Shown here one piece after another: positions 16,510 to 53,111 of a DNA stretch of 64,000 nucleotides (positions within the stretch are counted from its first letter, which is position 1; every line of letters starts with the position of its first letter). The stretch is from NCBI GenBank assembly GCA_947632065.1, contig CANRNO010000001.1, positions 5,803-69,802 of the forward strand, written 5' to 3'. The notes under the pieces are model-generated. The model was not told the DNA's origin, did not search any database, and worked only from the letters and a program-made list of their open reading frames with translations. The DNA comes from an uncultured Bacilli bacterium (lineage in GTDB: Bacteria > Bacillota_I > Bacilli_A > RF39 > UBA660). Both the position numbers and the translations under genes were made by a program.

Positions 16510-16538
16510 TTGACAAAAACTCCCTAATATGGTATAAT
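16510..16538 (+). promoter_or_regulatory. Consensus sigma-A promoter TTGACA-17-TGgTATAAT
   Basis: ttgaca (16510-16515), a 17-nt spacer, tataat (16533-16538) with an upstream TG; serves the 16590 gene. Confidence 0.6.
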
Positions 16539-16589
16539 ATGTACTGTTTAAAGGATATAGTAAATATTCTTGTAAGGGGGTTTTTATTT

Positions 16590-17009
16590 ATGGATAAATC
16601 ATACATATTTGAATATCTAGATGAAAATGATTTTCGTAAAAAAGAAAGATCTGTAAGAAAATATAATATGTTAGCTTATAAAAAATTAACTTTTAATTAT
16701 TATCCTGAATTACGTAAAGGTAATTTCTTAGGAGAAGAGAAAAGTAGAAACGATAAGGATAAAACTATATCATATGTATTAAAATTACCTACAGATGAAT
16801 TATTTGCGAAAGTTCATGGAGTAATATGTGTTCATTATACAGTTTATACTGAAAAAGGAATCATATTACTTACAAACATTACACCAGAAGAAATATTATC
16901 CGAAGGACATAGAGCAGAATTATCAACTTATAAAGGTGTAATGATTTCTAAAAGTAATCCAGAAAAAGATATGTTTAAAATTAATTTATTAAATATGTTA
17001 AATAAATAG
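16590..17009 (+). CDS. Hypothetical 139-aa protein
   Basis: AAGGGGG RBS then the ATG at 16590; the ORF-track start at 16539 lies inside the -10 region and is therefore rejected. No confident homology. Confidence 0.45.
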   Translation: MDKSYIFEYLDENDFRKKERSVRKYNMLAYKKLTFNYYPELRKGNFLGEEKSRNDKDKTISYVLKLPTDELFAKVHGVICVHYTVYTEKGIILLTNITPEEILSEGHRAELSTYKGVMISKSNPEKDMFKINLLNMLNK

Positions 17010-43596: not shown

Positions 43597-43690
43597 GAAC
43601 ACCTAATAATGATGTGATATGAACCTCATTCCTTTGTCCAAGAAATGGGGTTCAGTTCATGATGTTAGGTGTTCTCTTTATTGTTTTACT
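43597..43690 (+). terminator. pnp terminator: an unusually long (~30-bp arm) imperfect hairpin followed by a U-run
   Basis: gaacacctaataatgatgtgatatgaacc ... ggttcagttcatgatgttaggtgttc, then tctttattgtttt. Confidence 0.5.
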
Positions 43691-43862
43691 TTTTAATTTT
43701 TTATTTAATGTTTCAGCACCTATACGAATAGTTGCTACTATTTTTCATTAGAAGTTGGTTTTTTTGTATTGGAAACATATGCTGATTGTGATAAAATTAT
43801 GTTATTGAATATTGCAATGTAGGTACATATATTTTTATTATTAAAATTTAGGAGTAAAAAAT

Positions 43863-44867
43863 ATGAGAAAAGAGAAAAAACAAAAATCAAAAAAATCATT
43901 AATCATAATAGCTATAATTTTTATAATTATTTCTATTATTTGTGCTTGCTTGTATTTTAATCGAAAAGAAAATAATAACAAAAATAAGCAGGAGACAATA
44001 GCTCTTAATGACAAAGAAAAACAAGTATTAAGTATTATATGTGAGATGAAATCATTTTATAGTCTAAATCCAGGTGGAACAAGAGTTGATATTAATGATA
44101 TAATTATTAACAATTTATTCTATGTACAAAACAAAAATGAGGATATTATGATAATAGGTTTAGATTGGTCAATGAGTTGGGATGGTAAATCAGTTAATCA
44201 AAAAATTGGCCTTATACCTGATAGTGATTATCCTAACAGAATTTCAAACGAAAGCATTAAATCATTTTATAAACAACCTGAAAATGCCGCAAATGAATTG
44301 ACAAATTCGTATGAAATGGCATTGAAAAGTTACGTAAATACAGATGAGCTATCTGAAGAATTTACATTGCTTGAAGTAGATAAGAGTAAAATAAAAGAAA
44401 TAGAAAACAAGGCTAACAAATATTTAAATTATGAAAAATATATGAGTCGTTGGAAAAAAATAAAGAATGAAAAAGAACAATATCAATATGGTTATCATGC
44501 ATTATATAGAGATGAAAATGGTAAGGATATTTCTATAAACTTTTTTGATGACGGTATATGTTCTACAAACTACAGTAATTTTAATTATAGTCAAAATCCT
44601 TCTGGAGTAATGCGTTACACAGTTAAATATATTAGCAATTCTTGTACTTATCGAGAAATATCTCAAAGAGAGTTAGAAATAATTGATGATACAATAGCTT
44701 CTAGAACTGCAACATCAGGAGGAATGACAATGAACGTAGGAAGTTCGAAAGTATCATCTAGTCCAATAAGAATTGAATTTGATGAAAACTATAAAACAAT
44801 TAAAATAATTAATGGACATTTTAATTATACTGGAGATCCAGCTTTCTTGACTTTTACAGAACAATAA
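43863..44867 (+). CDS. Membrane-anchored hypothetical protein (334 aa)
   Basis: N-terminal Lys-rich stretch plus a TM; no recognised domain; first gene of the pnp-smc islet. Confidence 0.4.
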   Translation: MRKEKKQKSKKSLIIIAIIFIIISIICACLYFNRKENNNKNKQETIALNDKEKQVLSIICEMKSFYSLNPGGTRVDINDIIINNLFYVQNKNEDIMIIGLDWSMSWDGKSVNQKIGLIPDSDYPNRISNESIKSFYKQPENAANELTNSYEMALKSYVNTDELSEEFTLLEVDKSKIKEIENKANKYLNYEKYMSRWKKIKNEKEQYQYGYHALYRDENGKDISINFFDDGICSTNYSNFNYSQNPSGVMRYTVKYISNSCTYREISQRELEIIDDTIASRTATSGGMTMNVGSSKVSSSPIRIEFDENYKTIKIINGHFNYTGDPAFLTFTEQ

Positions 44868-44937
44868 TACTTAGCAATAATTAAATGTAGTATTAAAAAT
44901 TATCGTAAATAAAAATATTTAAGAGGTGTAGTATTAA

Positions 44938-45363
44938 ATGAAAAAAAGATATATTATAATTTTTATAGTTGTTATATTTGCTATTATAAACATAGGTGCA
45001 TTGATTTATATTGTTAATGAAAATAATACAATAGTCTATGCAAAAAAATATGTAGCAACTTCTGATGATTCATGGGTAGAATTTTTTAGTGATGGAACTT
45101 GCTTTAGAAATATAAAACTAGATTATTGTAAATATAAAGTTGATGGAGATTTAATAATTTTAAAACAAAAGCAAACAGATGAGAATCTTGGATTAAGTAT
45201 GAAAATGGAACTTCATTTTAAAATTATAGATAGTGATAATCTAGAACATATTCATACTTGTTTTCCAGACTATAATGATGCTCATTCAGACTTTAATTGT
45301 GATAGTGATGAGAATAATCTTGAAAAATTAGGACAGACTGTAAAATATTCTTTAAAGAGTTAA
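44938..45363 (+). CDS. Membrane-anchored hypothetical protein (141 aa)
   Basis: N-terminal TM; Cys/His-containing C-terminal region; AGAGGTG RBS. Confidence 0.4.
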   Translation: MKKRYIIIFIVVIFAIINIGALIYIVNENNTIVYAKKYVATSDDSWVEFFSDGTCFRNIKLDYCKYKVDGDLIILKQKQTDENLGLSMKMELHFKIIDSDNLEHIHTCFPDYNDAHSDFNCDSDENNLEKLGQTVKYSLKS

Positions 45364-45451
45364 ATAAAATCACCAAAATATTAAATGCTCTCAATAAATT
45401 TTTATAATAGAAATTATTAAGTATTCATATACTTAATTAGGTGATAACTTC

Positions 45452-46312
45452 ATGAAAAAAACAAAACAAGTTATAATAAGTATTTCTTTAATATTACTAA
45501 GTTTTTTCTATACTAATAAAACAGTTGAAATATTAAGAAATGCTGATCCTATAATGAAAACAATTAAAAGTAAAGAAGAAAGTTTTAAAATAGAAGCAAC
45601 TAATGCTAAAATCGAAAAAAACACTATCACACCAGGAAGTAGTGGAAGTAAAATAAATCTAGATGATAGTTTTAAAAAAATGAAAAAATACGGAAGTTAT
45701 AATGAAAGTTTAATGGTTTTTGAAGAAGTAAAACCAGAAGTTTCAATAAATAATAATTATGATAAATTTATAATATCTGGAAATCAAGAAAAAGAAAATG
45801 TAGCATTACTATTCAAAGTATTTAGAGATGACGAAGTAGATGATATTCTAAATATATTAGAAGAATATAAAGTGAATGCTACTTTTTTTGTAGATGGATT
45901 ATGGCTTGAAAATAATCAAGAAAAAGTTGTTTATATGAGTGAGATAGACCAAGAAATAGAAATTTTAAATTATGATTCTTCCTATCAACAAAAATATTTT
46001 CAAAGTGCAGTAAACATTTCTCATTCACTAACAGGAACCCCACCAAAGTTTTGTTATGCAGAATATGAAAGAAAACAAGTTTTAAACTTATGTAAAAAGA
46101 TAAATCTACATACAGTAATTCCTTCTATTATTACAGAAGAAAATCCATTTGGGAATGTCAAAGAAAAACTAGAAAACGGTTCAATTATAAGTATGCCTTT
46201 AGGAGCAGTAGTAGAAAAACAACTGCCGACTATAATAAATTATATAAAGCAAAGAGGTTATAAAATTGTATCATTAGATGAATTATTAAGTGAAAAAGAA
46301 GTTATAAATTAA
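45452..46312 (+). CDS. NodB-homology (polysaccharide deacetylase-like) protein with degenerate catalytic motifs (PdaB/YlxY-like)
   Basis: ALLFKVFRDDEVDDILNILEEYKVNATFFVDGLWLENN matches NodB motif 1, but the HExxH-region His residues are replaced (IDQEIEILNYDSS). Confidence 0.45.
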   Translation: MKKTKQVIISISLILLSFFYTNKTVEILRNADPIMKTIKSKEESFKIEATNAKIEKNTITPGSSGSKINLDDSFKKMKKYGSYNESLMVFEEVKPEVSINNNYDKFIISGNQEKENVALLFKVFRDDEVDDILNILEEYKVNATFFVDGLWLENNQEKVVYMSEIDQEIEILNYDSSYQQKYFQSAVNISHSLTGTPPKFCYAEYERKQVLNLCKKINLHTVIPSIITEENPFGNVKEKLENGSIISMPLGAVVEKQLPTIINYIKQRGYKIVSLDELLSEKEVIN

Positions 46313-46364
46313 AAAGTATAAATACCTAAAAAGGTATTTTTTTTATAAAATTTTAAAAAAAGTA

Positions 46365-46428
46365 TTGACAAGTGTACTAAAGTACGCTTATAATTAAAGT
46401 GTAATGATTAAAGTGCACTAAAATCATT
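46365..46428 (+). promoter_or_regulatory. Consensus promoter TTGACA-17-TATAAT followed by a perfect 28-bp nested palindrome (taatgattaaagtgcactaaaatcatta) operator
   Basis: -35 at 46365-46370, -10 at 46388-46393; palindrome at 46401-46428 over the transcription start and leader, 30 nt before the start codon. Confidence 0.55.
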
Positions 46429-46457
46429 AAATAATTATGGGAAAAGGAGAGTATTTA

Positions 46458-47267
46458 ATGAGAGAAAGAAAAATGTGTTGGTGGATTACTGAAAAATGTA
46501 ACGAAAACTGCGAATATTGTTTCAGATCACTAAGTAGCATTAACAAATTCAACTTTGATGAACATATGAAAATATTAGAAAGGATAATTGACTTTGGAAC
46601 AGATCAAATTACTTGGTCTGGAGGAGAAGCATTGCTTGTAGATCATGCTCCAGAATTAATTAAATATGCTCATGAAAAAGGTATTTACAACAAAATAACA
46701 ACTAATGGTAAATTACTAACACCAGAAAAAATAGAAGAGTTAAAACCTTATATAGATTTAGTTGCTTTATCAATTGATTCATTTAATGATGAGACTAACA
46801 AAAAATTAGGACGTGGTATTGAACATAGAAAAACAGTTATGAATAGAATTAATCATCTAATGGCATCAGGTGTAAAAGTAGATATAAACACAGTAGTAAC
46901 AAGCCTAAACATCAAGGATTTAGATGATATGGGAGAGTTTCTTAGAGAAAACCCTATTTCTGGTAAATGGAAATTAATGACTTTCTTCCCAGTAAGAGAA
47001 AAAGCCCTTAAAAACAAAGATAAATTAGAAATAAGTGATGAAGAGTTTTTAACAGAAGTAAAAAGAATTATAGAAAAATATCCAGATATCAATATAACAT
47101 TTATGATGAATGATGAAATCCAACAACAATATCCAGGTGTAAGAGCTAACGGAGATTTGCTAGTAACACGTGATTACAATGATATGATATTTGGTAATAT
47201 GGCAACAGATGATAAAATAGAAAATCCATTTGAATATGATAAAAAATTCCAAAAAGTAAAAAAGTAA
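46458..47267 (+). CDS. Viperin-like radical-SAM enzyme (prokaryotic viperin, pVip-like)
   Basis: CNENCEYCF (viperin CNYKCGFCF), ITWSGGEALL (INFSGGEPFL), TNGKLL (SNGSLI), IDLVALSIDSFNDETNKKLGRG ([22 protein letters not shown]), VDINTVVTSLNIKD (KINSVINRFNVEE), GKWKLMTF (VRWKVFQ); start set at MRERK, which has an AAAGGAGAG RBS. Confidence 0.6.
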   Translation: MRERKMCWWITEKCNENCEYCFRSLSSINKFNFDEHMKILERIIDFGTDQITWSGGEALLVDHAPELIKYAHEKGIYNKITTNGKLLTPEKIEELKPYIDLVALSIDSFNDETNKKLGRGIEHRKTVMNRINHLMASGVKVDINTVVTSLNIKDLDDMGEFLRENPISGKWKLMTFFPVREKALKNKDKLEISDEEFLTEVKRIIEKYPDINITFMMNDEIQQQYPGVRANGDLLVTRDYNDMIFGNMATDDKIENPFEYDKKFQKVKK

Positions 47268-47294
47268 CTTTATAATTATCAATATAATAATTTA

Positions 47295-47322
47295 AAAGGA
47301 AGCTTCTTGCTTTCTTTTTTTG
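47295..47322 (+). terminator. Intrinsic terminator after the viperin-like gene
   Basis: aaaggaagc-ttctt-gctttcttt followed by ttttg. Confidence 0.45.
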
Positions 47323-47387
47323 TTTACAAAATATAAAAAAAATTATAATATAATAAGTATAAATTGTTAATTGAAAAGGAAAAATCT

Positions 47388-47903
47388 ATGAAGAAAGATA
47401 TTAATAAATTACCTAAAAGTATTATTTTAGTAAGACATGGGGAAAATATATTTAATGATAATATTCCAAATGATTTATTAGAGCTCTCACCACTTGGTAT
47501 TAAACAAGCAATGTGGGTAAAAGAAAAATTGAATAATAATTTTGATGTAGTATTTTCATCAACTTCAAAACGTACTATTGATACTGCTACTATAATATCT
47601 TCAAAAATAAAAGCTATCCAAGATAAAAGATTATTAGAAAAAGGATATGGTAATAATAAAAATGGAGATGAAACTTTAAAAGATGCTAAAAATAGATTCA
47701 AAGAAGTATTAGATGAAGTAATAAGAAAATACCCAAATAAAAAAGTATTATTTGTTATCCATGGAGCACTTATGAAACTTGCACAAGATGTAATAGAAAG
47801 TGAAAATCTAAAAAGAGATTCCATAGAAAACTGTGAAATAATAAAATATGAAAGAACCTCAGATGAAGTGTTTAATAAAATTATAGAAAAACCTTTTGAG
47901 TAA
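47388..47903 (+). CDS. Histidine phosphatase (phosphoglycerate-mutase superfamily, branch 1)
   Basis: ILVRHGEN (the catalytic RHG motif), SSTSKRTIDTA, and C-terminal VIHGALM (second His); own promoter TTTACA-17-TAATAT; the minus-strand ORF overlapping it (47324-47920) is rejected. Confidence 0.7.
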   Translation: MKKDINKLPKSIILVRHGENIFNDNIPNDLLELSPLGIKQAMWVKEKLNNNFDVVFSSTSKRTIDTATIISSKIKAIQDKRLLEKGYGNNKNGDETLKDAKNRFKEVLDEVIRKYPNKKVLFVIHGALMKLAQDVIESENLKRDSIENCEIIKYERTSDEVFNKIIEKPFE

Positions 47904-47936
47904 ATATAAAGATATTCCAAGCAGAATATCTTTTCT
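47904..47936 (+). terminator. Intrinsic terminator after the phosphatase gene
   Basis: aaagatattc-caagca-gaatatcttt followed by a T-rich run. Confidence 0.5.
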
Positions 47937-48014
47937 TTATATTAAATTTCCTTTTTTCCTTTTGATATTTATAAATTTTTGTTATAATGGAAATAGTCAA
48001 AAGTAGGTGATATG

Positions 48015-50969
48015 ATGTATTTAAAACAAATTAATACTAGTGGGTTTAAATCTTTTGCTAAAAAACTAGAAATATCACTAGGTAATAATATAACTTGTAT
48101 AGTTGGACCTAATGGTAGTGGTAAAAGTAATATAGTAGATGCTGTTAGATGGGTTTTAGGAGAACAAAGCGTTAAATCTCTACGTGGAGATAATACTATG
48201 AGTGACATTATATTCTCAGGAAGTAAAACTAGAAAACCATTAAATGTTGCAAGCGTCGAATTAATATTTGATAACAATGATCATTTTTTAAACATTCCCT
48301 ATACAGAGATATCTATCAAAAGAAGAATATATAGAAGTGGAGAAAATGAATATTTCTTAAATAATGAAAGATGTCGTCTTAAAGATTTAACTAATTTATT
48401 ATTAGATTCAGGTATAGGACGTGAATCATTTAATATTATCTCTCAAGGAGAAGTGGATAATATCCTATCATCATCTCCACAAGAAAGACGTGTAATATTT
48501 GAAGAAGCATCAGGAATATTAAAATACAAAAAAAGGAAAATAGAAGCATTAAGAAAACTAGAAAGAACACATAATAATTTAGATAGAATAAACGATATTA
48601 TCACCGAAATAGAAACCCAAGTAGAACCATTAAAAAGACAAAGTAAAAAAGCAAGAAAATATAAAGAAGCTAAAGATACTTTAGAAAAATATGAAATAGC
48701 CTTACTTGCCCATGATATAAAGTTCTACAAAGAAAAATTAGATACTATTATTAAGAAAATAGATGAATTAAATCAACAGATAATAGAACTTTCTAGTGAA
48801 ACATCTCTAATGGATTCAAAGTCTTTAGAAGATGCGTCTATTATATCAAAACTAGAACGTGATATTACAGAAGCAAATGAAAAATTATTAAAGACAACAG
48901 AAGAAGTAGAAAAGATAAATGGAGAACTTACTCTTTTGAAAGAAAGAAAGAAAAACCAAAAAGAAGATAGTGAAGTATTAGATGAAATAAGAAGATTATT
49001 AGAAGAAAAAGAGAGCTTATCATCAACCATTACTGTTGTAAAAAACGAAATAGAAAATATAAATAAAACACTAGAAGAAAATAAAAAATTAGAAAAAAAC
49101 CTTACAGAAGAGTTAAATAAAATAAAATCTAAAAAAGATAATCTTTCAATGAAAAGGAATTCTATTGATAGAGAACTTACTTCTCTTGATTATAAAATAA
49201 ATGGTCTTGAAAGAGAAATAGAAAATAATGACTCTTTTCCAATCTCTGTAAAAAAAGTATTAAATTCAATAAAATTAAATGGTATTTGTGATACTTTAGG
49301 TAATGTATTAAATGTAGAAGATAAATATCTAAAAGCCTTAGAGACCGCAACCGCATCTTCTAAAAACTTTATTATTACAAAAAATGAAAACTCAGCAAGA
49401 GATGCAATTTTGTACTTAAAAGAAAACTCTCTAGGACGAGCAACTTTCTTCCCACTTACAGTAATAGAAAAGAAAGAAGTAGATGCTAAAACATTAAAAG
49501 AGATAAAGGATAGCTCTGACTTTATAGATGTTTTAAGTAATTTAGTTACCTATGATAAAAAATATGAAAATATTATAAAAAATCAATTAGGTACCATTCT
49601 AGTATCAGAGAATATTGATAGTGCTATTAGATTATCTAAAAAAGTAAACAAAAGATATAGAATTATCACTTTAGATGGACAAACTATTAATACTGGTGGT
49701 TCTATGAGTGGTGGAAGTAATTATAAAAGTAAAAGTGTTATATCTTTAAGACGAGAATTAACAGTCTACAAAGAAAAGAAAAAGACATTAAAAGAAGAAA
49801 TAATTACTATAGAAGAACAATTAAAAGAAGTAGAAAAAGAACAAGAGGTAAAAGAAAAAGAATTCTTTAGTACTAAATCAAAAACAGTTTCATTAGAAGA
49901 AATGATAAATGTTCAAACAGAAAAAAAGAAAAACTCTGAAGAAAATCTTGAAAAGGTAAGTAAAGATTATGAAACTTATTCACATCTTAAAAATAAATCA
50001 ATCGATTCTAAAGAAGAAAAACTAACTTCTTTATATCATGAAAAACTTGCTTTAAAAGAAACTTTAAATAATGATATAAAACATAAAAATAAAACTTTAG
50101 AAGAATTAAAATTAAAACAAATAGAAAAAGCCGGAGAAGAAAAACTTAAAAATGCAAATCTTCGTAAATTAGAACATGAACTTTCTGATTATGAGGTAGA
50201 TAAAAATAGACTTGATGTAACACTTGATAATATGTTAAATACTTTAAACGAAGAATATTCAATGACTTATGAAAAAGCAGATAGTGATTATGAGTTAGAT
50301 ATAGAAGTAGAAGATGCAAGAAAAAAAGTTACCACTTGTAAAAATGAAATTAAAAAAATAGGAATGGTTAACTTAGATAGTATAGAAGAATATGAAAGAG
50401 TATCTACTAGATTTAACTTTTTAACAAATCAAAAAAATGACCTATTAAATGCTGAAGAAACTCTACTTTCTATAATGAATGATATGGATGAAGTAATGAT
50501 TTCTGAATTTGAAAAAACATTTAAAAAAGTTAAAGTAGAATTCCAAAAAGTATTTAAAGAATTATTTAAAGGTGGAAATGCTGATTTAATTTTAACTGAG
50601 CCTGATGATATTCTAACAACAGGAGTAGAAATAGTTGCATCCCCACCAGGTAAAAAACTAACATCAATTTCCCTTCTATCAGGAGGAGAAAAAACTCTAA
50701 CCGCAATAAGCCTACTATTTGCTATGCTAAATGTTAGAAGAGTGCCTTTCTGCTTATTTGATGAAGTGGAAGCAGCTCTAGATGAGGCTAATGTTGATGA
50801 GTTTGGAAAATATTTAGATCATTATAAAGATAAAACACAATTTTTAATTATAACCCATAAAAAGAAAACTATGGAATATGCTGATACATTATATGGTATT
50901 ACAATGCAAGAATCTGGTGTTTCTAAACTAGTTAGTGTTAAACTTAATGAAAAAGAAGAAATATTATAA
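48015..50969 (+). CDS. smc: Chromosome partition protein SMC (short coiled-coil form, ~984 aa)
   Basis: N-terminal Walker A GPNGSGKSN, a hinge region, and a C-terminal LSGGEKTLTAISLLFA signature plus Walker B LFDEVEAALD. Confidence 0.9.
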   Translation: MYLKQINTSGFKSFAKKLEISLGNNITCIVGPNGSGKSNIVDAVRWVLGEQSVKSLRGDNTMSDIIFSGSKTRKPLNVASVELIFDNNDHFLNIPYTEISIKRRIYRSGENEYFLNNERCRLKDLTNLLLDSGIGRESFNIISQGEVDNILSSSPQERRVIFEEASGILKYKKRKIEALRKLERTHNNLDRINDIITEIETQVEPLKRQSKKARKYKEAKDTLEKYEIALLAHDIKFYKEKLDTIIKKIDELNQQIIELSSETSLMDSKSLEDASIISKLERDITEANEKLLKTTEEVEKINGELTLLKERKKNQKEDSEVLDEIRRLLEEKESLSSTITVVKNEIENINKTLEENKKLEKNLTEELNKIKSKKDNLSMKRNSIDRELTSLDYKINGLEREIENNDSFPISVKKVLNSIKLNGICDTLGNVLNVEDKYLKALETATASSKNFIITKNENSARDAILYLKENSLGRATFFPLTVIEKKEVDAKTLKEIKDSSDFIDVLSNLVTYDKKYENIIKNQLGTILVSENIDSAIRLSKKVNKRYRIITLDGQTINTGGSMSGGSNYKSKSVISLRRELTVYKEKKKTLKEEIITIEEQLKEVEKEQEVKEKEFFSTKSKTVSLEEMINVQTEKKKNSEENLEKVSKDYETYSHLKNKSIDSKEEKLTSLYHEKLALKETLNNDIKHKNKTLEELKLKQIEKAGEEKLKNANLRKLEHELSDYEVDKNRLDVTLDNMLNTLNEEYSMTYEKADSDYELDIEVEDARKKVTTCKNEIKKIGMVNLDSIEEYERVSTRFNFLTNQKNDLLNAEETLLSIMNDMDEVMISEFEKTFKKVKVEFQKVFKELFKGGNADLILTEPDDILTTGVEIVASPPGKKLTSISLLSGGEKTLTAISLLFAMLNVRRVPFCLFDEVEAALDEANVDEFGKYLDHYKDKTQFLIITHKKKTMEYADTLYGITMQESGVSKLVSVKLNEKEEIL

Positions 50970-51770: not shown

Positions 51771-53048
51771 ATGTTTGTAGATGAGGTTAAATTAATAGTA
51801 AAAGCTGGTAATGGTGGAGATGGTTGTACTGCATTTCGCCGTGAAAAATACGTTCCAATGGGAGGACCTTTTGGAGGTAATGGTGGACATGGAGCAAGCA
51901 TCATATTTAAGGTAGATGAAGGGCTTCATACATTACTAGATTTAAGATATCAAAAGTTAATAAAAGGACATAAAGGAGAAAATGGTAAAGGTAAAAATCA
52001 ACATGGTAAGGGTGCAGAAGATGTTATTGTAAAAGTTCCAAGAGGAACAGTAGTAACAGATTTAGATACTGGACTTATTATTGCTGATTTAACTGATAAA
52101 GATAGTAGTTGTGTAGTTGCAAAAGGTGGAAGAGGAGGACGTGGTAACACTGCTTTTAAAACCCAAACAAATACAGCACCAGATTTCTCAGAAAAAGGAG
52201 AACCAGGAGAAGAAAGAGAATTAAAAGTAGAACTAAAAATGCTTGCTGATGTTGGTTTAGTAGGACTTCCAAGTGTAGGTAAATCAACTTTTATCTCATG
52301 TGTATCCCATTCACGTCCAAAAATTGCTGCTTACCATTTCACAACACTTTATCCAAATTTAGGAGTTGCAAAAAGTAAAAACAATAGAAGTTTTGTAATC
52401 GCAGATCTTCCAGGACTAATCAAGGGAGCCTCAACAGGAGAAGGATTAGGAGATAGATTCTTAAAACATATAGAAAGAACTAAAATCATTGCTCATGTCA
52501 TAGATATGTCAGGAAGCGAAGGAAGAGACCCTTATGAAGATTATCTTACAATAAATAAAGAACTAGAAGAATACAGTGAAAAACTATTAAAAAAACCTCA
52601 AATAATTATAGCCAATAAAATGGATATAGAAGGATCACAAAAATTACTTTCAGAATTTAAAAACAAAGTAAAAGATGTAGAAATATTTGAAATAAGCGCA
52701 GCGTTAAATAAAGGACTAGATAAAGTAATAGATCGTCTAGGTGAATTATTAGAAGACCTACCTGATACAACATTATATCAAGACGATGCTTTTGAAAGTC
52801 ATGTTTTATATAAATTCGAAAGTGAAAAACCATTTGAAATAGAAAAAGAAGATGATTCTACTTGGCATATTAAAGGAGAAAAAATAGAAAAATTATTTAA
52901 AATGACAAAAATAGAATCTGAAGAAGGAATGAATAGATTCCTAAAAAAATTAAGAAGACTTGGTGTAGATGATAAACTAAAAGAATTAGGAGTAAAAGAA
53001 AATGACCAAGTAAGAATATTAGATTTCTATTTTACATACAAAGATTAA
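51771..53048 (+). CDS. obg: GTPase Obg
   Basis: Gly-rich Obg fold N-terminus, G-domain GLPSVGKST and DLPGLI, C-terminal OCT/TGS-like domain. Confidence 0.95.
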   Translation: MFVDEVKLIVKAGNGGDGCTAFRREKYVPMGGPFGGNGGHGASIIFKVDEGLHTLLDLRYQKLIKGHKGENGKGKNQHGKGAEDVIVKVPRGTVVTDLDTGLIIADLTDKDSSCVVAKGGRGGRGNTAFKTQTNTAPDFSEKGEPGEERELKVELKMLADVGLVGLPSVGKSTFISCVSHSRPKIAAYHFTTLYPNLGVAKSKNNRSFVIADLPGLIKGASTGEGLGDRFLKHIERTKIIAHVIDMSGSEGRDPYEDYLTINKELEEYSEKLLKKPQIIIANKMDIEGSQKLLSEFKNKVKDVEIFEISAALNKGLDKVIDRLGELLEDLPDTTLYQDDAFESHVLYKFESEKPFEIEKEDDSTWHIKGEKIEKLFKMTKIESEEGMNRFLKKLRRLGVDDKLKELGVKENDQVRILDFYFTYKD

Positions 53049-53111
53049 TAAAAAAGTCTCAAAATGTTATGAATTTTGAGATTTTTAATATATAATAATA
53101 TTGGTGATATA

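What the first reader, a model, noticed from the sequence alone, without database searches (positions are those of the whole stretch)
46365..47936. Viperin-like radical-SAM gene (pVip candidate) under an operator-controlled consensus promoter, partnered with a histidine phosphatase instead of a nucleotide kinase
The 269-aa radical-SAM protein matches viperin along its whole length: the CNxxCxYCF cluster, the SGGE motif, SxDSFxxExNxxxGRG, the NxVVxxxN block and the xKWKxxxF block. Viperins make 3'-deoxy-3',4'-didehydro-NTP chain terminators, and in bacteria they are antiviral genes usually next to CMP/UMP/TMP kinases. Here the only co-oriented neighbour is a PGAM-superfamily histidine phosphatase with an intact RHG catalytic motif, its own promoter and terminator. 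A phosphatase could detoxify or convert ddh-nucleotides, which would make this an undescribed variant of the module. The viperin gene has a textbook TTGACA-17-TATAAT promoter immediately followed by a perfect 28-bp nested palindrome (taatgatt-aa-agtgcact-aa-aatcatta), which suggests tight repression until induction.
Basis: partly seen in the sequence, partly recalled or inferred. Interest (0 to 1): 0.8.

Follow-up and report, generated by a model that had tools for sequence, protein, structure and literature searches.

The report
Viperin-like radical-SAM gene, incidental phosphatase neighbour
The gene encodes an intact enzyme whose closest known relatives are the antiviral viperins, but it belongs to an unnamed sister family that lacks most conserved viperin pocket residues; the neighbouring phosphatase is a strain-specific insertion, not a partner.

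Summary
The sequence features are real. There is a 269-aa radical-SAM gene (46458-47267) behind a 12/12 TTGACA/TATAAT promoter, followed by a 171-aa histidine phosphatase gene (47388-47903).

Viperins are the closest family by HMM, solved-structure sequence and predicted fold. However, the protein scores 145 bits against NCBI's curated cutoff of 180 and 158 bits on PADLOC pVip, where canonical pVips score 254-300. It falls outside the canonical viperin clade (92/100 NJ bootstraps). It also differs at residues invariant in canonical viperins: N77, H79, K120, K220 and R245 become C, W, Q, D and K, the pVip Asn becomes T, and the C-terminal RGG tail is missing. These changes are invariant in all 40 family members examined, so it is a functional sister family, not a proven ddhNTP synthase.

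The phosphatase lies in a 672-bp indel that is absent from a roughly 95%-identical strain and sits behind a terminator. It never recurs: 0 of 9 other radical-SAM contexts have a phosphatase, and 0 of 3 phosphatase contexts have a radical-SAM gene. The recurrent partners in relatives are CYTH proteins, AAA_28 or PfkB kinases, DAHP synthase and LysR regulators.

The promoter and palindromes travel with the gene into a different, defence-island-like context and are better conserved than synonymous sites. No regulator was found. The promoter spacer is 18 nt, not 17, and the palindrome is 24/28, not perfect.

The parts
46365..46394 (+). Sigma-70-type promoter, TTGACA-18 nt-TATAAT, 12/12 match to consensus
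   Evidence: Found by the promoter scan. Only 2 perfect sites occur in the window, against 0.27 expected. It is conserved in L001/L003-6 and in L007.
46371..46388 (.). Palindrome O1 inside the promoter spacer (AGTGTACT-AA-AGTACGCT). One mismatch here; perfect (…AGTACACT) in the sister strain.
   Evidence: Seen. Within about 1 Mb of fetched loci it occurs only upstream of the closest versions of this gene.
46402..46429 (.). Palindrome O2 just downstream of the -10 box: TAATGATT-AA-AGTGCACT-AA-AATCATTA (12/14 pairs)
   Evidence: Detected. It is unique in the window. It is conserved in L007 apart from a 1-nt change in the right-hand AA spacer. Folding the leader as RNA is not significant (z = -0.85).
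46446..46449 (+). Ribosome-binding site GGAG, 8 nt before the ATG
   Evidence: Read directly from the sequence.
46458..47267 (+). Viperin-like radical-SAM enzyme, 269 aa. It carries the cluster cysteines C14/C18/C21, the SGGE SAM motif and Y225 (equivalent to mouse viperin Y302). The family-specific residues are C7, W8, W9, Q50, D142, R180, R229 and T237. There is no C-terminal RGG.Y.W tail.
47294..47318 (+). Intrinsic-terminator-like hairpin with a T-run, ending the radical-SAM transcript
   Evidence: Found: 10-pair stem followed by TTTGTTT.
47287..47958 (.). 672-bp insertion/deletion relative to a 93-96%-identical strain. It holds the terminator, a promoter-like site, the phosphatase gene and its hairpin.
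   Evidence: BLASTN of L001 against the window, junction sequences and the gene lists of L003-L006.
47323..47351 (+). Promoter-like site for the phosphatase gene (TTTACA-17-TAATAT, 9/12)
   Evidence: Found. It is a weak consensus match only.
47388..47903 (+). Small histidine phosphatase (PGAM superfamily branch 1), 171 aa, with RHG and the second His intact. It is not functionally linked to the radical-SAM gene.
   Evidence: Pfam PF00300 at 79 bits. It is far below every NCBIfam equivalog cutoff and has no PADLOC hit.
47908..47933 (+). A/T-rich hairpin (AAAGATATTC-CAAGCA-GAATATCTTT) followed by a T-rich run; possible terminator of the phosphatase gene
   Evidence: Read from the sequence. The terminator scan did not call it because it has too few G-C pairs.

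Best explanation
The gene encodes an intact, stand-alone radical-SAM enzyme. It belongs to an unnamed family known only from metagenomes and MAGs, which is the nearest sister radiation to viperins but lies outside the clade of canonical viperins and pVips.

Shown here:
- It keeps the machinery for radical generation: the CxxxCxxC cluster, the SGGE and NG SAM motifs, and the partial TIM-barrel fold.
- It keeps the Tyr that is invariant in viperins.
- Its substrate pocket is remodelled. Residues invariant in canonical viperins have changed (N77 to C, H79 to W, K120 to Q, K220 to D, R245 to K, and the pVip Asn to T).
- The C-terminal RGG.Y.W tail is absent.
- New residues (W8, W9, D142, R180, R229) are invariant across 40 family members.

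Inferred:
- It probably performs viperin-type chemistry, that is 5'-deoxyadenosyl-radical H-abstraction followed by dehydration or rearrangement.
- The substrate is probably a ribose- or nucleotide-like molecule that is not held by a triphosphate clamp, such as a nucleoside, a monophosphate or a sugar phosphate. This fits the partners seen in relatives (PfkB or NadR-like AAA_28 kinases and CYTH triphosphate-tunnel domains).
- I put the chance that the product serves conflict or defence at about 50%.
- The gene is transcribed alone, from a consensus sigma-A promoter to its own terminator.
- The promoter is overlapped by two gene-specific palindromes that move with the gene, so it is probably held off by a trans-acting DNA-binding protein. 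That protein is not encoded in this window.

The histidine phosphatase next door is a separate transcription unit in a strain-specific 672-bp indel and is not part of the system.
For: Family placement:
- The best NCBIfam hit is viperin_w_prok at 145 bits; the next family scores 80.
- PADLOC pVip scores 158 bits, E = 6e-47.
- The nine best solved-structure hits are all viperins: 55-65 bits for the single sequence and 131-143 bits for the family profile, against about 82 bits for BlsE, SkfB and MoaA.
- The AF2 model has pLDDT 90.8. Its best Foldseek matches are viperins at TM 0.78-0.80 and rmsd 2.7-3.0.

Outside the canonical clade:
- It is below the curated cutoff of 180 bits, as are eight relatives at 128-163 bits.
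- Canonical pVips score 254-300 bits over the full PADLOC models.
- Only 6 of the 149 nearest 50%-identity representatives reach the cutoff.
- The NJ split separating canonical viperins from everything else has 92/100 support. The family clade has 100/100.

Remodelled pocket and function:
- The residue differences come, with the mouse viperin sequence verified against 5vsl.
- The family-specific residues are invariant in all 40 family members examined, which indicates purifying selection.

Transcription and regulation:
- The gene has its own promoter and terminator.
- The promoter-plus-palindrome block is 87% identical between the window and L007, against 63% at synonymous third positions, even though the flanking genes are unrelated.
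- The palindromes occur nowhere else in about 1 Mb of fetched DNA.

Partners and defence flavour in relatives:
- Recurrent partners are CYTH, AAA_28 and PfkB kinases, DAHP synthase and LysR.
- L007 carries an integrase, a Fic protein (PDC-S04, 333 bits) and HerA (364 bits). L008 and L112 carry TIR proteins. L011 carries a NERD protein. The wider family includes a SIR2_2 fusion.
Against: - No biochemistry was done, so the substrate and product are inferred from residue patterns and neighbours only.
- The roles I assign to N77, H79, K120, K220, R245, K247 and R347 in triphosphate binding come from my memory of Fenwick et al. 2020. That paper could not be retrieved here. Only the conservation pattern was measured.
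- K172 (equivalent to K247) is kept, and the family-specific R180 and R229 could rebuild a phosphate site, so an NTP substrate is not excluded.
- PADLOC-type annotation would probably still label this protein pVip.
- In the window itself all neighbours are housekeeping genes (pnp, a ylxY-like deacetylase, smc, obg). Relatives sit next to a bona fide DAHP synthase and a TrhP-like U32 protein. Both points favour metabolism over defence.
- The tree is neighbour-joining on 70 sequences, and the deeper branching is unresolved (25-29/100).
- No regulator was identified, so operator function rests on conservation alone.
Confidence: 0.55

Rival explanations
1. It is a genuine but divergent stand-alone prokaryotic viperin. 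It converts CTP, UTP or GTP into 3'-deoxy-3',4'-didehydro-NTP chain terminators and protects against phage.
For: - Viperin models are by far the best hits.
- The conserved Tyr, K247, the S/D/S and N222 motifs and GRG are all kept.
- 88% of bacterial viperins lack a kinase neighbour.
- Some homologs lie beside defence-type genes.
Against: - It is below the curated cutoff, at 145 vs 180 bits.
- It scores about 100 bits below canonical pVips, and the C-terminal 30 model positions are unmatched.
- It lies outside the canonical clade in 92/100 bootstraps.
- Five invariant pocket residues have changed, including a K-to-D charge reversal. The conserved pVip Asn is T, and the RGG.Y.W tail is missing.
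Confidence: 0.2
2. The radical-SAM gene and the histidine phosphatase form a two-gene module. The phosphatase dephosphorylates or detoxifies the radical-SAM product.
For: - The two genes are adjacent and co-oriented in the window and in four near-identical rabbit-gut contigs.
- The phosphatase catalytic motifs are intact.
- There is a loose precedent: the Ophion defence system pairs a viperin-related radical-SAM enzyme with a PHP phosphatase.
Against: - The phosphatase lies in a 672-bp indel absent from a 93-96%-identical strain that keeps the radical-SAM gene.
- A terminator and a separate promoter lie between the genes.
- None of the 9 other close-family contexts has a His phosphatase, and no His phosphatase was among the recurrent neighbours in 66 dereplicated wider-family contexts.
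- None of the 3 independent phosphatase-homolog contexts has a radical-SAM gene. The strain lacking the adjacent copy carries a 59%-identical paralogue elsewhere.
- Ophion OpnA is not a close relative.
Confidence: 0.04
3. It is a housekeeping or biosynthetic enzyme with no role in defence, for example in a shikimate- or PEP-linked small-molecule pathway or an RNA or nucleotide modification pathway.
For: - In the window it lies between core genes (pnp, a ylxY-like deacetylase, smc, obg) and is present at that locus in both strain haplotypes.
- Relatives at 35-43% identity sit in a conserved co-oriented cluster: GreA, a TrhP-like U32 protein, DAHP synthase, a methyltransferase, the radical-SAM gene, a second radical-SAM gene or methyltransferase, and CYTH. 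Others sit beside LysR regulators, which are typical of metabolic operons.
- In closer relatives the gene keeps a bona fide DAHP synthase neighbour in two different gene orders.
Against: - The close family is patchy and sits in a different context in nearly every genome. It moves with its own promoter and is sometimes in integrase/HerA/Fic or TIR neighbourhoods.
- None of the proposed pathway partners is present within 64 kb here.
- The conserved synteny of the U32 cluster may partly reflect shared ancestry of related gut Bacilli rather than function.
Confidence: 0.25

Closest known systems
Prokaryotic viperins (pVips; NCBIfam NF038283, PADLOC PDLC02903/4) and eukaryotic viperin/RSAD2 (PDB 5VSL, 6Q2P, 7N7H, 7N7I)
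   Same: Both share the radical-SAM core with CxxxCxxC, the SGGE, TNG, SxDS, GRG, NTV and (R/K)WK motifs and the conserved Tyr (Y302 in mouse, Y225 here). Viperins are also the best fold match (TM about 0.8). The gene is a single gene and is often stand-alone.
   Different: It scores 145 bits against a cutoff of 180 and lies outside the canonical clade. N77, H79, K120, K220 and R245 have become C, W, Q, D and K. GGEP has become GGEA. The xGEND loop is replaced by FFPVRxxAxxN. The nucleobase-loop Asn has become T. The C-terminal F..RGG.Y.W tail is absent.
Ophion OpnA (a viperin-related radical-SAM enzyme in a validated three-gene anti-jumbo-phage system with a PHP phosphatase and a PRTase; bioRxiv 10.1101/2025.09.30.679545)
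   Same: [quoted passage not shown]
   Different: OpnA shares only generic radical-SAM core similarity with this protein: no significant BLASTP match, and hhalign 87% over the core. Its partners, PHP and PRTase, are absent here. The phosphatase here belongs to a different superfamily and is not conserved with the gene.
MoaA (GTP 3',8-cyclase), the usual outgroup for viperin trees
   Same: It has a radical-SAM core and an NTP substrate, and it is the next-nearest annotated enzyme class.
   Different: It scores much lower: 77 bits on TIGR02666 against a cutoff of 284, and TM 0.68-0.71. This protein has no second C-terminal Fe-S cluster motif.
PGAM-superfamily histidine phosphatases (PF00300; for example CobC alpha-ribazole phosphatase, PspA)
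   Same: The neighbouring 171-aa protein has the RHG motif, the second catalytic His and a Pfam score of 79 bits.
   Different: It is far below every equivalog cutoff (best is CobC at 49 bits against 163). It belongs to a lineage-specific set of small paralogues found in unrelated contexts.

Membership tests
Viperin / pVip | Radical-SAM core: CxxxCxxC cluster motif plus SAM-binding motifs | tested here: met
   C14/C18/C21, SGGE and TNG are present. Pfam Radical_SAM scores 90 bits.
Viperin / pVip | Score at or above the curated family threshold (NCBIfam NF038283, 180 bits) | tested here: not met
   It scores 145 bits, and eight relatives score 128-163 bits. The bona fide pVip P0056 scores 261 bits.
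Viperin / pVip | Full-length match to pVip profile models | tested here: not met
   On PADLOC PDLC02903 it scores 158 bits over model positions 2-227 of 257. Six canonical pVips score 254-300 bits over positions 1-257.
Viperin / pVip | Branches inside the clade of characterised viperins | tested here: not met
   In the NJ tree the split separating 10 canonical viperins from all others has 92/100 support. A viperin-plus-family grouping has 4/100. Caveat: this is a distance method with limited sampling.
Viperin / pVip | Viperin fold (partial beta-alpha barrel closed by a C-terminal extension) | tested here: inconclusive
   The core fold matches best to viperins (TM 0.78-0.80). The terminal tail segment carrying RGG.Y.W has no counterpart.
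Viperin / pVip | Conserved basic or polar residues lining the nucleotide-triphosphate site (mouse N77, H79, K120, K220, R245, K247, R347). The roles are from my memory of Fenwick 2020; invariance was measured here. | tested here: not met
   Only K247 is kept (K172). The others are C7, W9, Q50, D142 and K170, and the tail is absent. This holds in 40 of 40 family members.
Viperin / pVip | Conserved active-site Tyr (mouse Y302) | tested here: met
   Y225 is invariant.
Viperin / pVip | Conserved Asn in the beta-8 loop of prokaryotic 'promiscuous' pockets (Shomar 2023) | tested here: not met
   All 7 prokaryotic canonical sequences have N at the column aligned with mouse C314. The family has T237.
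Viperin / pVip | Produces ddh-nucleotides and protects against phage | not testable with these tools
   This needs expression, LC-MS and plaque assays.
Viperin / pVip | Enrichment in defence islands | tested here: inconclusive
   About 4 of 10 close-family contexts have defence-type neighbours (HerA, Fic/PDC-S04, integrase, TIR, NERD). The window context is housekeeping.
Radical-SAM + phosphatase two-gene module | Adjacency conserved across homologs | tested here: not met
   Only 1 of 10 close-family contexts has it, and none of the 3 phosphatase-homolog contexts does. It is absent from a 93-96%-identical strain.
Radical-SAM + phosphatase two-gene module | Co-transcription | tested here: not met
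   A terminator-like hairpin at 47294-47318 and a promoter-like site at 47323-47351 lie between the genes. This is a prediction only.
Histidine phosphatase superfamily, branch 1 (PF00300) | RHG motif, second catalytic His, and Pfam gathering score | tested here: met
   LVRHGEN and VIHGA are present. It scores 79 bits against a cutoff of 21.7.
Repressor-controlled promoter (operator) | Palindromes overlapping the promoter, conserved beyond the neutral rate | tested here: met
   The block is 87% identical against 63% at synonymous sites between the window and L007, which are different contexts. The elements are unique to this gene.
Repressor-controlled promoter (operator) | An identified cognate DNA-binding protein | tested here: not met
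   No adjacent regulator is present. No homolog of the LysR or XRE-HTH partners of relatives occurs in the window.

The most novel reading that the evidence does not exclude
The window gene is a stand-alone representative of an undescribed sister family of viperins. This family has swapped the triphosphate clamp for a different pocket (W8, W9, Q50, D142, R180, R229).

Its recurrent partners in relatives are CYTH triphosphate-tunnel domains, nucleoside- or sugar-type kinases (AAA_28/NadR-like and PfkB), DAHP synthase and LysR or XRE regulators. Under this reading the family makes a modified nucleoside, nucleotide or sugar that is not a ddhNTP.

In that case the gene would be an inducible, horizontally mobile, single-gene effector controlled by a dedicated operator.
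Probability: 0.35. Interest if true: 0.7.

Novelty: new variant of a known kind. Interest (0 to 1): 0.45.

Why it matters
Viperins are the textbook case of an antiviral enzyme shared by bacteria and humans, and their ddh-nucleotide products are drug leads. A sizeable sister family shows up here: 58 representatives at E ≤ 1e-30, and 143 of the 149 nearest representatives fall below the curated viperin cutoff. The family keeps the radical machinery but has a rebuilt substrate pocket and different partner enzymes, so it could make a different class of modified nucleotide or sugar.

There is also a practical point. HMM-based defence annotators are likely to label such genes 'pVip'. This case shows that the label can be wrong at the level of substrate and partners. 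The specific claim of a radical-SAM-plus-phosphatase module does not hold.

Tried and rejected
- **Riboswitch or leader RNA.** Rfam found no hit across 45800-48200 at E ≤ 1. Folding the leader as RNA gave z = -0.85. This idea was rejected.
- **Phage origin of the operator.** An exact 17-mer from O2 is absent from IMG/VR.
- **Phage-borne homologs.** Only 3 weak hits (21-29% identity) appeared in viral contigs. The BFVD fold search returned only generic radical-SAM proteins.
- **Identity with Ophion OpnA.** Rejected.
- **Other operator copies or a regulator in the window.** None found.
- **Known operator consensus.** From memory, I compared the palindromes with the LexA/Cheo, Fur, NrdR and CIRCE consensus sequences. 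Some half-sites look similar (Fur-like TAATGAT and CIRCE-like AGTGCACT), but the spacing or orientation is wrong. This was not pursued.
- **Homology among small downstream genes.** The small genes downstream of other stand-alone homologs show no similarity to one another or to the phosphatase.
- **Structural papers.** I could not retrieve the viperin structural papers (Fenwick 2017 and 2020, Lachowicz 2021, Bernheim 2021). Residue roles are therefore from memory.
- **AFDB fold library.** It was unavailable.
Full report
**What is in the sequence.**
The region 46365-47936 holds two separate + strand genes.
- The first gene is a 269-aa ORF (46458-47267) that starts at an ATG 8 nt after GGAG. It hits Pfam Radical_SAM at 90 bits.
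- The second gene is a 171-aa ORF (47388-47903). It hits His_Phos_1 at 79 bits and has RHG and the second catalytic His intact.
- The promoter scan finds TTGACA (46365) and TATAAT (ending 46394) matching 12/12, with an 18-nt spacer rather than the reported 17. Only two perfect sites occur in the 64-kb window, against 0.27 expected.
- The 28-bp element at 46402-46429 has perfect outer 8-bp arms and a perfect inner AGTGCACT. The two AA spacers are not complementary, so it is 12/14 pairs, not perfect.
- A second palindrome, AGTGTACT-AA-AGTACGCT, fills the promoter spacer (46371-46388) and is perfect in the sister strain.
- A terminator-like hairpin with a T-run (47294-47318) lies between the two genes.
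- All neighbouring genes, from pnp to smc and beyond, are co-oriented. The phosphatase is therefore not the only co-oriented neighbour.

**Is it a viperin? Evidence for a close relationship.**
- The best NCBIfam model is viperin_w_prok at 145 bits. The next family scores 80 bits and MoaA scores 77.
- PADLOC pVip scores 158 bits.
- The nine best solved-structure sequences are all viperins. They score 55-65 bits with the single sequence and 131-143 bits with a family profile, against about 82 bits for BlsE, SkfB and MoaA.
- An AlphaFold model (pLDDT 90.8) matches viperin structures best, at TM 0.78-0.80 and rmsd about 2.8 Å. SkfB reaches 0.76 and MoaA 0.68-0.71.
- The viperin-like description is therefore correct at the level of nearest family and fold.

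**Is it a viperin? Evidence against membership of the canonical family.**
- The score of 145 bits is below NCBI's curated cutoff of 180. Eight close and distant relatives also score below it, at 128-163 bits, whereas a bona fide pVip picked up in the same search (P0056) scores 261.
- Six canonical pVips score 254-300 bits on the PADLOC models across their full length. The window protein and its relatives score 138-168 bits, with the last ~30 model positions unmatched in the window protein (and in P0054 and P0047).
- Of the 149 nearest representatives in a 1.84-billion-protein library, only 6 reach the approximately 180-bit level.
- I built a neighbour-joining tree of 70 sequences. The split that isolates the 10 canonical viperins (mouse, Nematostella, Trichoderma and seven prokaryotic sequences) has 92/100 bootstrap support. 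The window family is a 100/100 clade of its own. A viperin-plus-family grouping appears in only 4/100 replicates.

**Active-site comparison.**
I aligned the family with the mouse viperin sequence, which I verified residue by residue against PDB 5VSL. At positions invariant or nearly invariant in the canonical set, the family differs as follows:

| Canonical viperin feature | Window family |
|---|---|
| N77 | C7 |
| H79 | W9 |
| K120 | Q50 |
| K220 | D142 (charge reversal) |
| R245 | K170 |
| GGEP | GGEA |
| xGEND loop | FFPVRxxAxxN |
| Asn that all seven prokaryotic canonical sequences have at the mouse C314 column | T237 |
| C-terminal F..RGG.Y.W tail | absent |

- K247 (K172 here) and the conserved Tyr (Y302, Y225 here) are retained.
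- From memory of Fenwick et al. 2020, which I could not retrieve here, the changed residues and the tail P-loop hold the triphosphate. The Asn is described by Shomar et al. as the main nucleobase-stabilising residue of prokaryotic pockets.
- Every one of these family-specific residues is invariant in 40 family sequences sharing 62-97% identity. This is a selected, functional active site with a different specificity, not decay.

**The phosphatase.**
- A rabbit-gut MAG contig (CANQHJ010000026, labelled 'uncultured Bacilli') is 93-96% identical in DNA to the window across pnp-deacetylase-radical-SAM-smc-obg. It lacks window 47287-47958, the 672 bp that carry the terminator, a promoter-like site, the phosphatase gene and its hairpin.
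- Both haplotypes occur in assemblies with adjacent ENA accession numbers (ERZ272490xx–ERZ272494xx).
- That same MAG carries a 59%-identical phosphatase paralogue elsewhere, among unrelated genes.
- Two further phosphatase homologs lie in unrelated contexts. One sits in a tandem array of four paralogues and the other sits upstream of relA.
- In the other direction, none of nine other independent contexts of close radical-SAM homologs (68-97% identity) contains a histidine phosphatase. No histidine phosphatase appears among the recurrent neighbours in 66 dereplicated contexts of the wider family.

**What does recur with the family.**
- In close relatives (68-72% identity), the radical-SAM gene sits beside a roughly 440-aa protein that combines an XRE HTH, an AAA_28 (NadR-like kinase) domain and a CYTH domain. 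This is seen in three independent contexts.
- Two of those three contexts also contain a bona fide DAHP synthase (346 bits against a cutoff of 335), in two different gene orders.
- Relatives at 35-43% identity fall into three recurrent arrangements:
  - GreA, a TrhP-like U32 protein, DAHP synthase, a methyltransferase, the radical-SAM gene, a second radical-SAM gene or methyltransferase, a cytidine deaminase and CYTH.
  - CYTH, the radical-SAM gene and LysR.
  - LysR, a radical-SAM gene with a receiver-like extension or a neighbouring PfkB kinase, and a Spo0A-like regulator.
- Fusions to PfkB, LysR and SIR2_2 also exist.
- None of these partners has a homolog in the 64-kb window, so the window gene is a stand-alone version.
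- Shomar et al. note eukaryotic viperins fused to a 'triphosphatase or cyclase domain'. A full-text search found no paper linking CYTH, radical SAM and viperin.

**The promoter and palindromes.**
- An 84%-identical homolog (L007, from a second rabbit MAG) lies in a completely different neighbourhood: integrase, a Fic protein (PADLOC PDC-S04, 333 bits), HerA (364 bits) and an HTH_38 protein.
- L007 nevertheless carries the same TTGACA, O1, TATAAT and O2 block.
- From the -35 box to just past O2 the two sequences are about 87% identical, whereas synonymous third positions of the coding regions are 63% identical. Sequence further upstream and the 3' terminators are unrelated.
- The elements occur nowhere else in the window or in about 1 Mb of fetched loci.
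- Folding the leader as RNA is not significant, and Rfam finds nothing.
- I therefore accept that these are DNA operators that belong to the gene. The binding protein is unknown, and 'tight repression until induction' remains an inference.

**Most likely mechanism.**
- *Shown:* the gene encodes an intact radical-SAM enzyme of a viperin-sister family. It has its own consensus promoter, conserved palindromes and a terminator. The phosphatase is an unrelated, strain-specific insertion.
- *Inferred:* the enzyme performs viperin-type 5'-dA-radical chemistry, since the Tyr and the SAM and cluster motifs are kept. Its substrate is ribose- or nucleotide-like but is not gripped as a triphosphate. This fits the lost clamp residues and the kinase and CYTH partners of relatives.
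- *Inferred:* expression is held off by a host factor at O1 and O2.
- I put a defence or conflict role at about 50%. In favour are the mobility, the defence-type neighbours in about 4 of 10 contexts and the SIR2 fusion. Against are the housekeeping surroundings here and the DAHP synthase, U32 and LysR links, which point to metabolism.

**Novelty and verdict.**
- The finding as written, a pVip with a phosphatase partner, is not supported in its most interesting part.
- What remains is a well-defined, unnamed sister family of viperins with a remodelled pocket and distinctive partners. Ophion's OpnA is a precedent for viperin-related but distinct defence radical-SAM enzymes, but it is not a close relative.
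- I rate it a new variant of a known kind, of moderate interest.

Noticed in passing
window 43616-45372: A second strain-specific indel (1757 bp) lies between pnp and the deacetylase gene. It carries two ORFs (43863-44867, 334 aa; 44938-45363, 141 aa), each with a hydrophobic stretch near the N-terminus (by eye). Neither has a Pfam or PADLOC hit. The region is absent from the 93-96%-identical MAG contig L001.
   Followed up: partly
L001 11906-13465 (corresponds to window 53047-53049): The sister MAG has an extra 1560 bp after obg, encoding a 368-aa protein without Pfam hits. This is a third indel between the two strains within 15 kb.
   Followed up: no
L032, L039, L041, L043, L047, L050 and others (metagenome loci): A conserved co-oriented cluster surrounds relatives of the window protein at 35-43% identity, in about 14 dereplicated gut-metagenome lineages. 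Its order is GreA, a 692-aa TrhP-like U32 protein, DAHP synthase, a methyltransferase, the viperin-like radical-SAM gene, a second radical-SAM gene or methyltransferase, a cytidine deaminase on the opposite strand, and a CYTH protein. It could be an RNA or nucleotide modification cluster or a small-molecule cluster.
   Followed up: partly
L011 6817-8145; L002 (gene +1); L108 2882-4186: A roughly 440-aa protein fuses an XRE HTH, an AAA_28 (NadR-like kinase) domain and a CYTH domain. It sits directly beside close family members (68-72% identity) in three contexts, twice together with a bona fide DAHP synthase. It is the best candidate for a true partner of the family.
   Followed up: partly
P0062, P0083/P0094, P0160, P0198, P0127 (representative library): Several domain fusions occur in the wider family: radical-SAM with a PfkB kinase, radical-SAM with a LysR regulator, and SIR2_2 with radical-SAM. 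A canonical viperin is fused to a type I restriction T1RH-like C-terminal domain. One 651-aa protein has a long N-terminal membrane-like extension.
   Followed up: partly
L007 2812-10777: The 84%-identical homolog that shares the promoter-operator block sits in an island. The island holds a phage-type integrase, a Fic protein (PADLOC PDC-S04, 333 bits), an HTH_38 protein and a HerA ATPase (364 bits).
   Followed up: partly
window 46424-46433 and 46452-46461: A 10-nt perfect complement pairs the right arm of O2 with the start-codon region (UCAUUAAAUA with UAUUUAAUGA), and this pairing forms the MFE structure of the leader. It is not better than shuffled sequence (z = -0.85), so it is probably an effect of A/T richness.
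   Followed up: yes
window 16510-16538: This is the only other perfect TTGACA-N17-TATAAT site in the window. It lies directly upstream of the ORF at 16539-17009.
   Followed up: no
L022 4363-6318: Four tandem His_Phos_1 paralogues, two of which look split or truncated, lie next to two PHP-domain proteins and a GrpB protein in a metagenome contig. This points to lineage-specific expansion of these small phosphatases.
   Followed up: no
cluster of P0002; P0045: Short fragments of the radical-SAM protein (65 aa and 148 aa) are recorded on many contigs: 24, 8, 6 and 17 contigs, up to 67 kb long. They may be truncated or disrupted copies that are common in some gut population.
   Followed up: no
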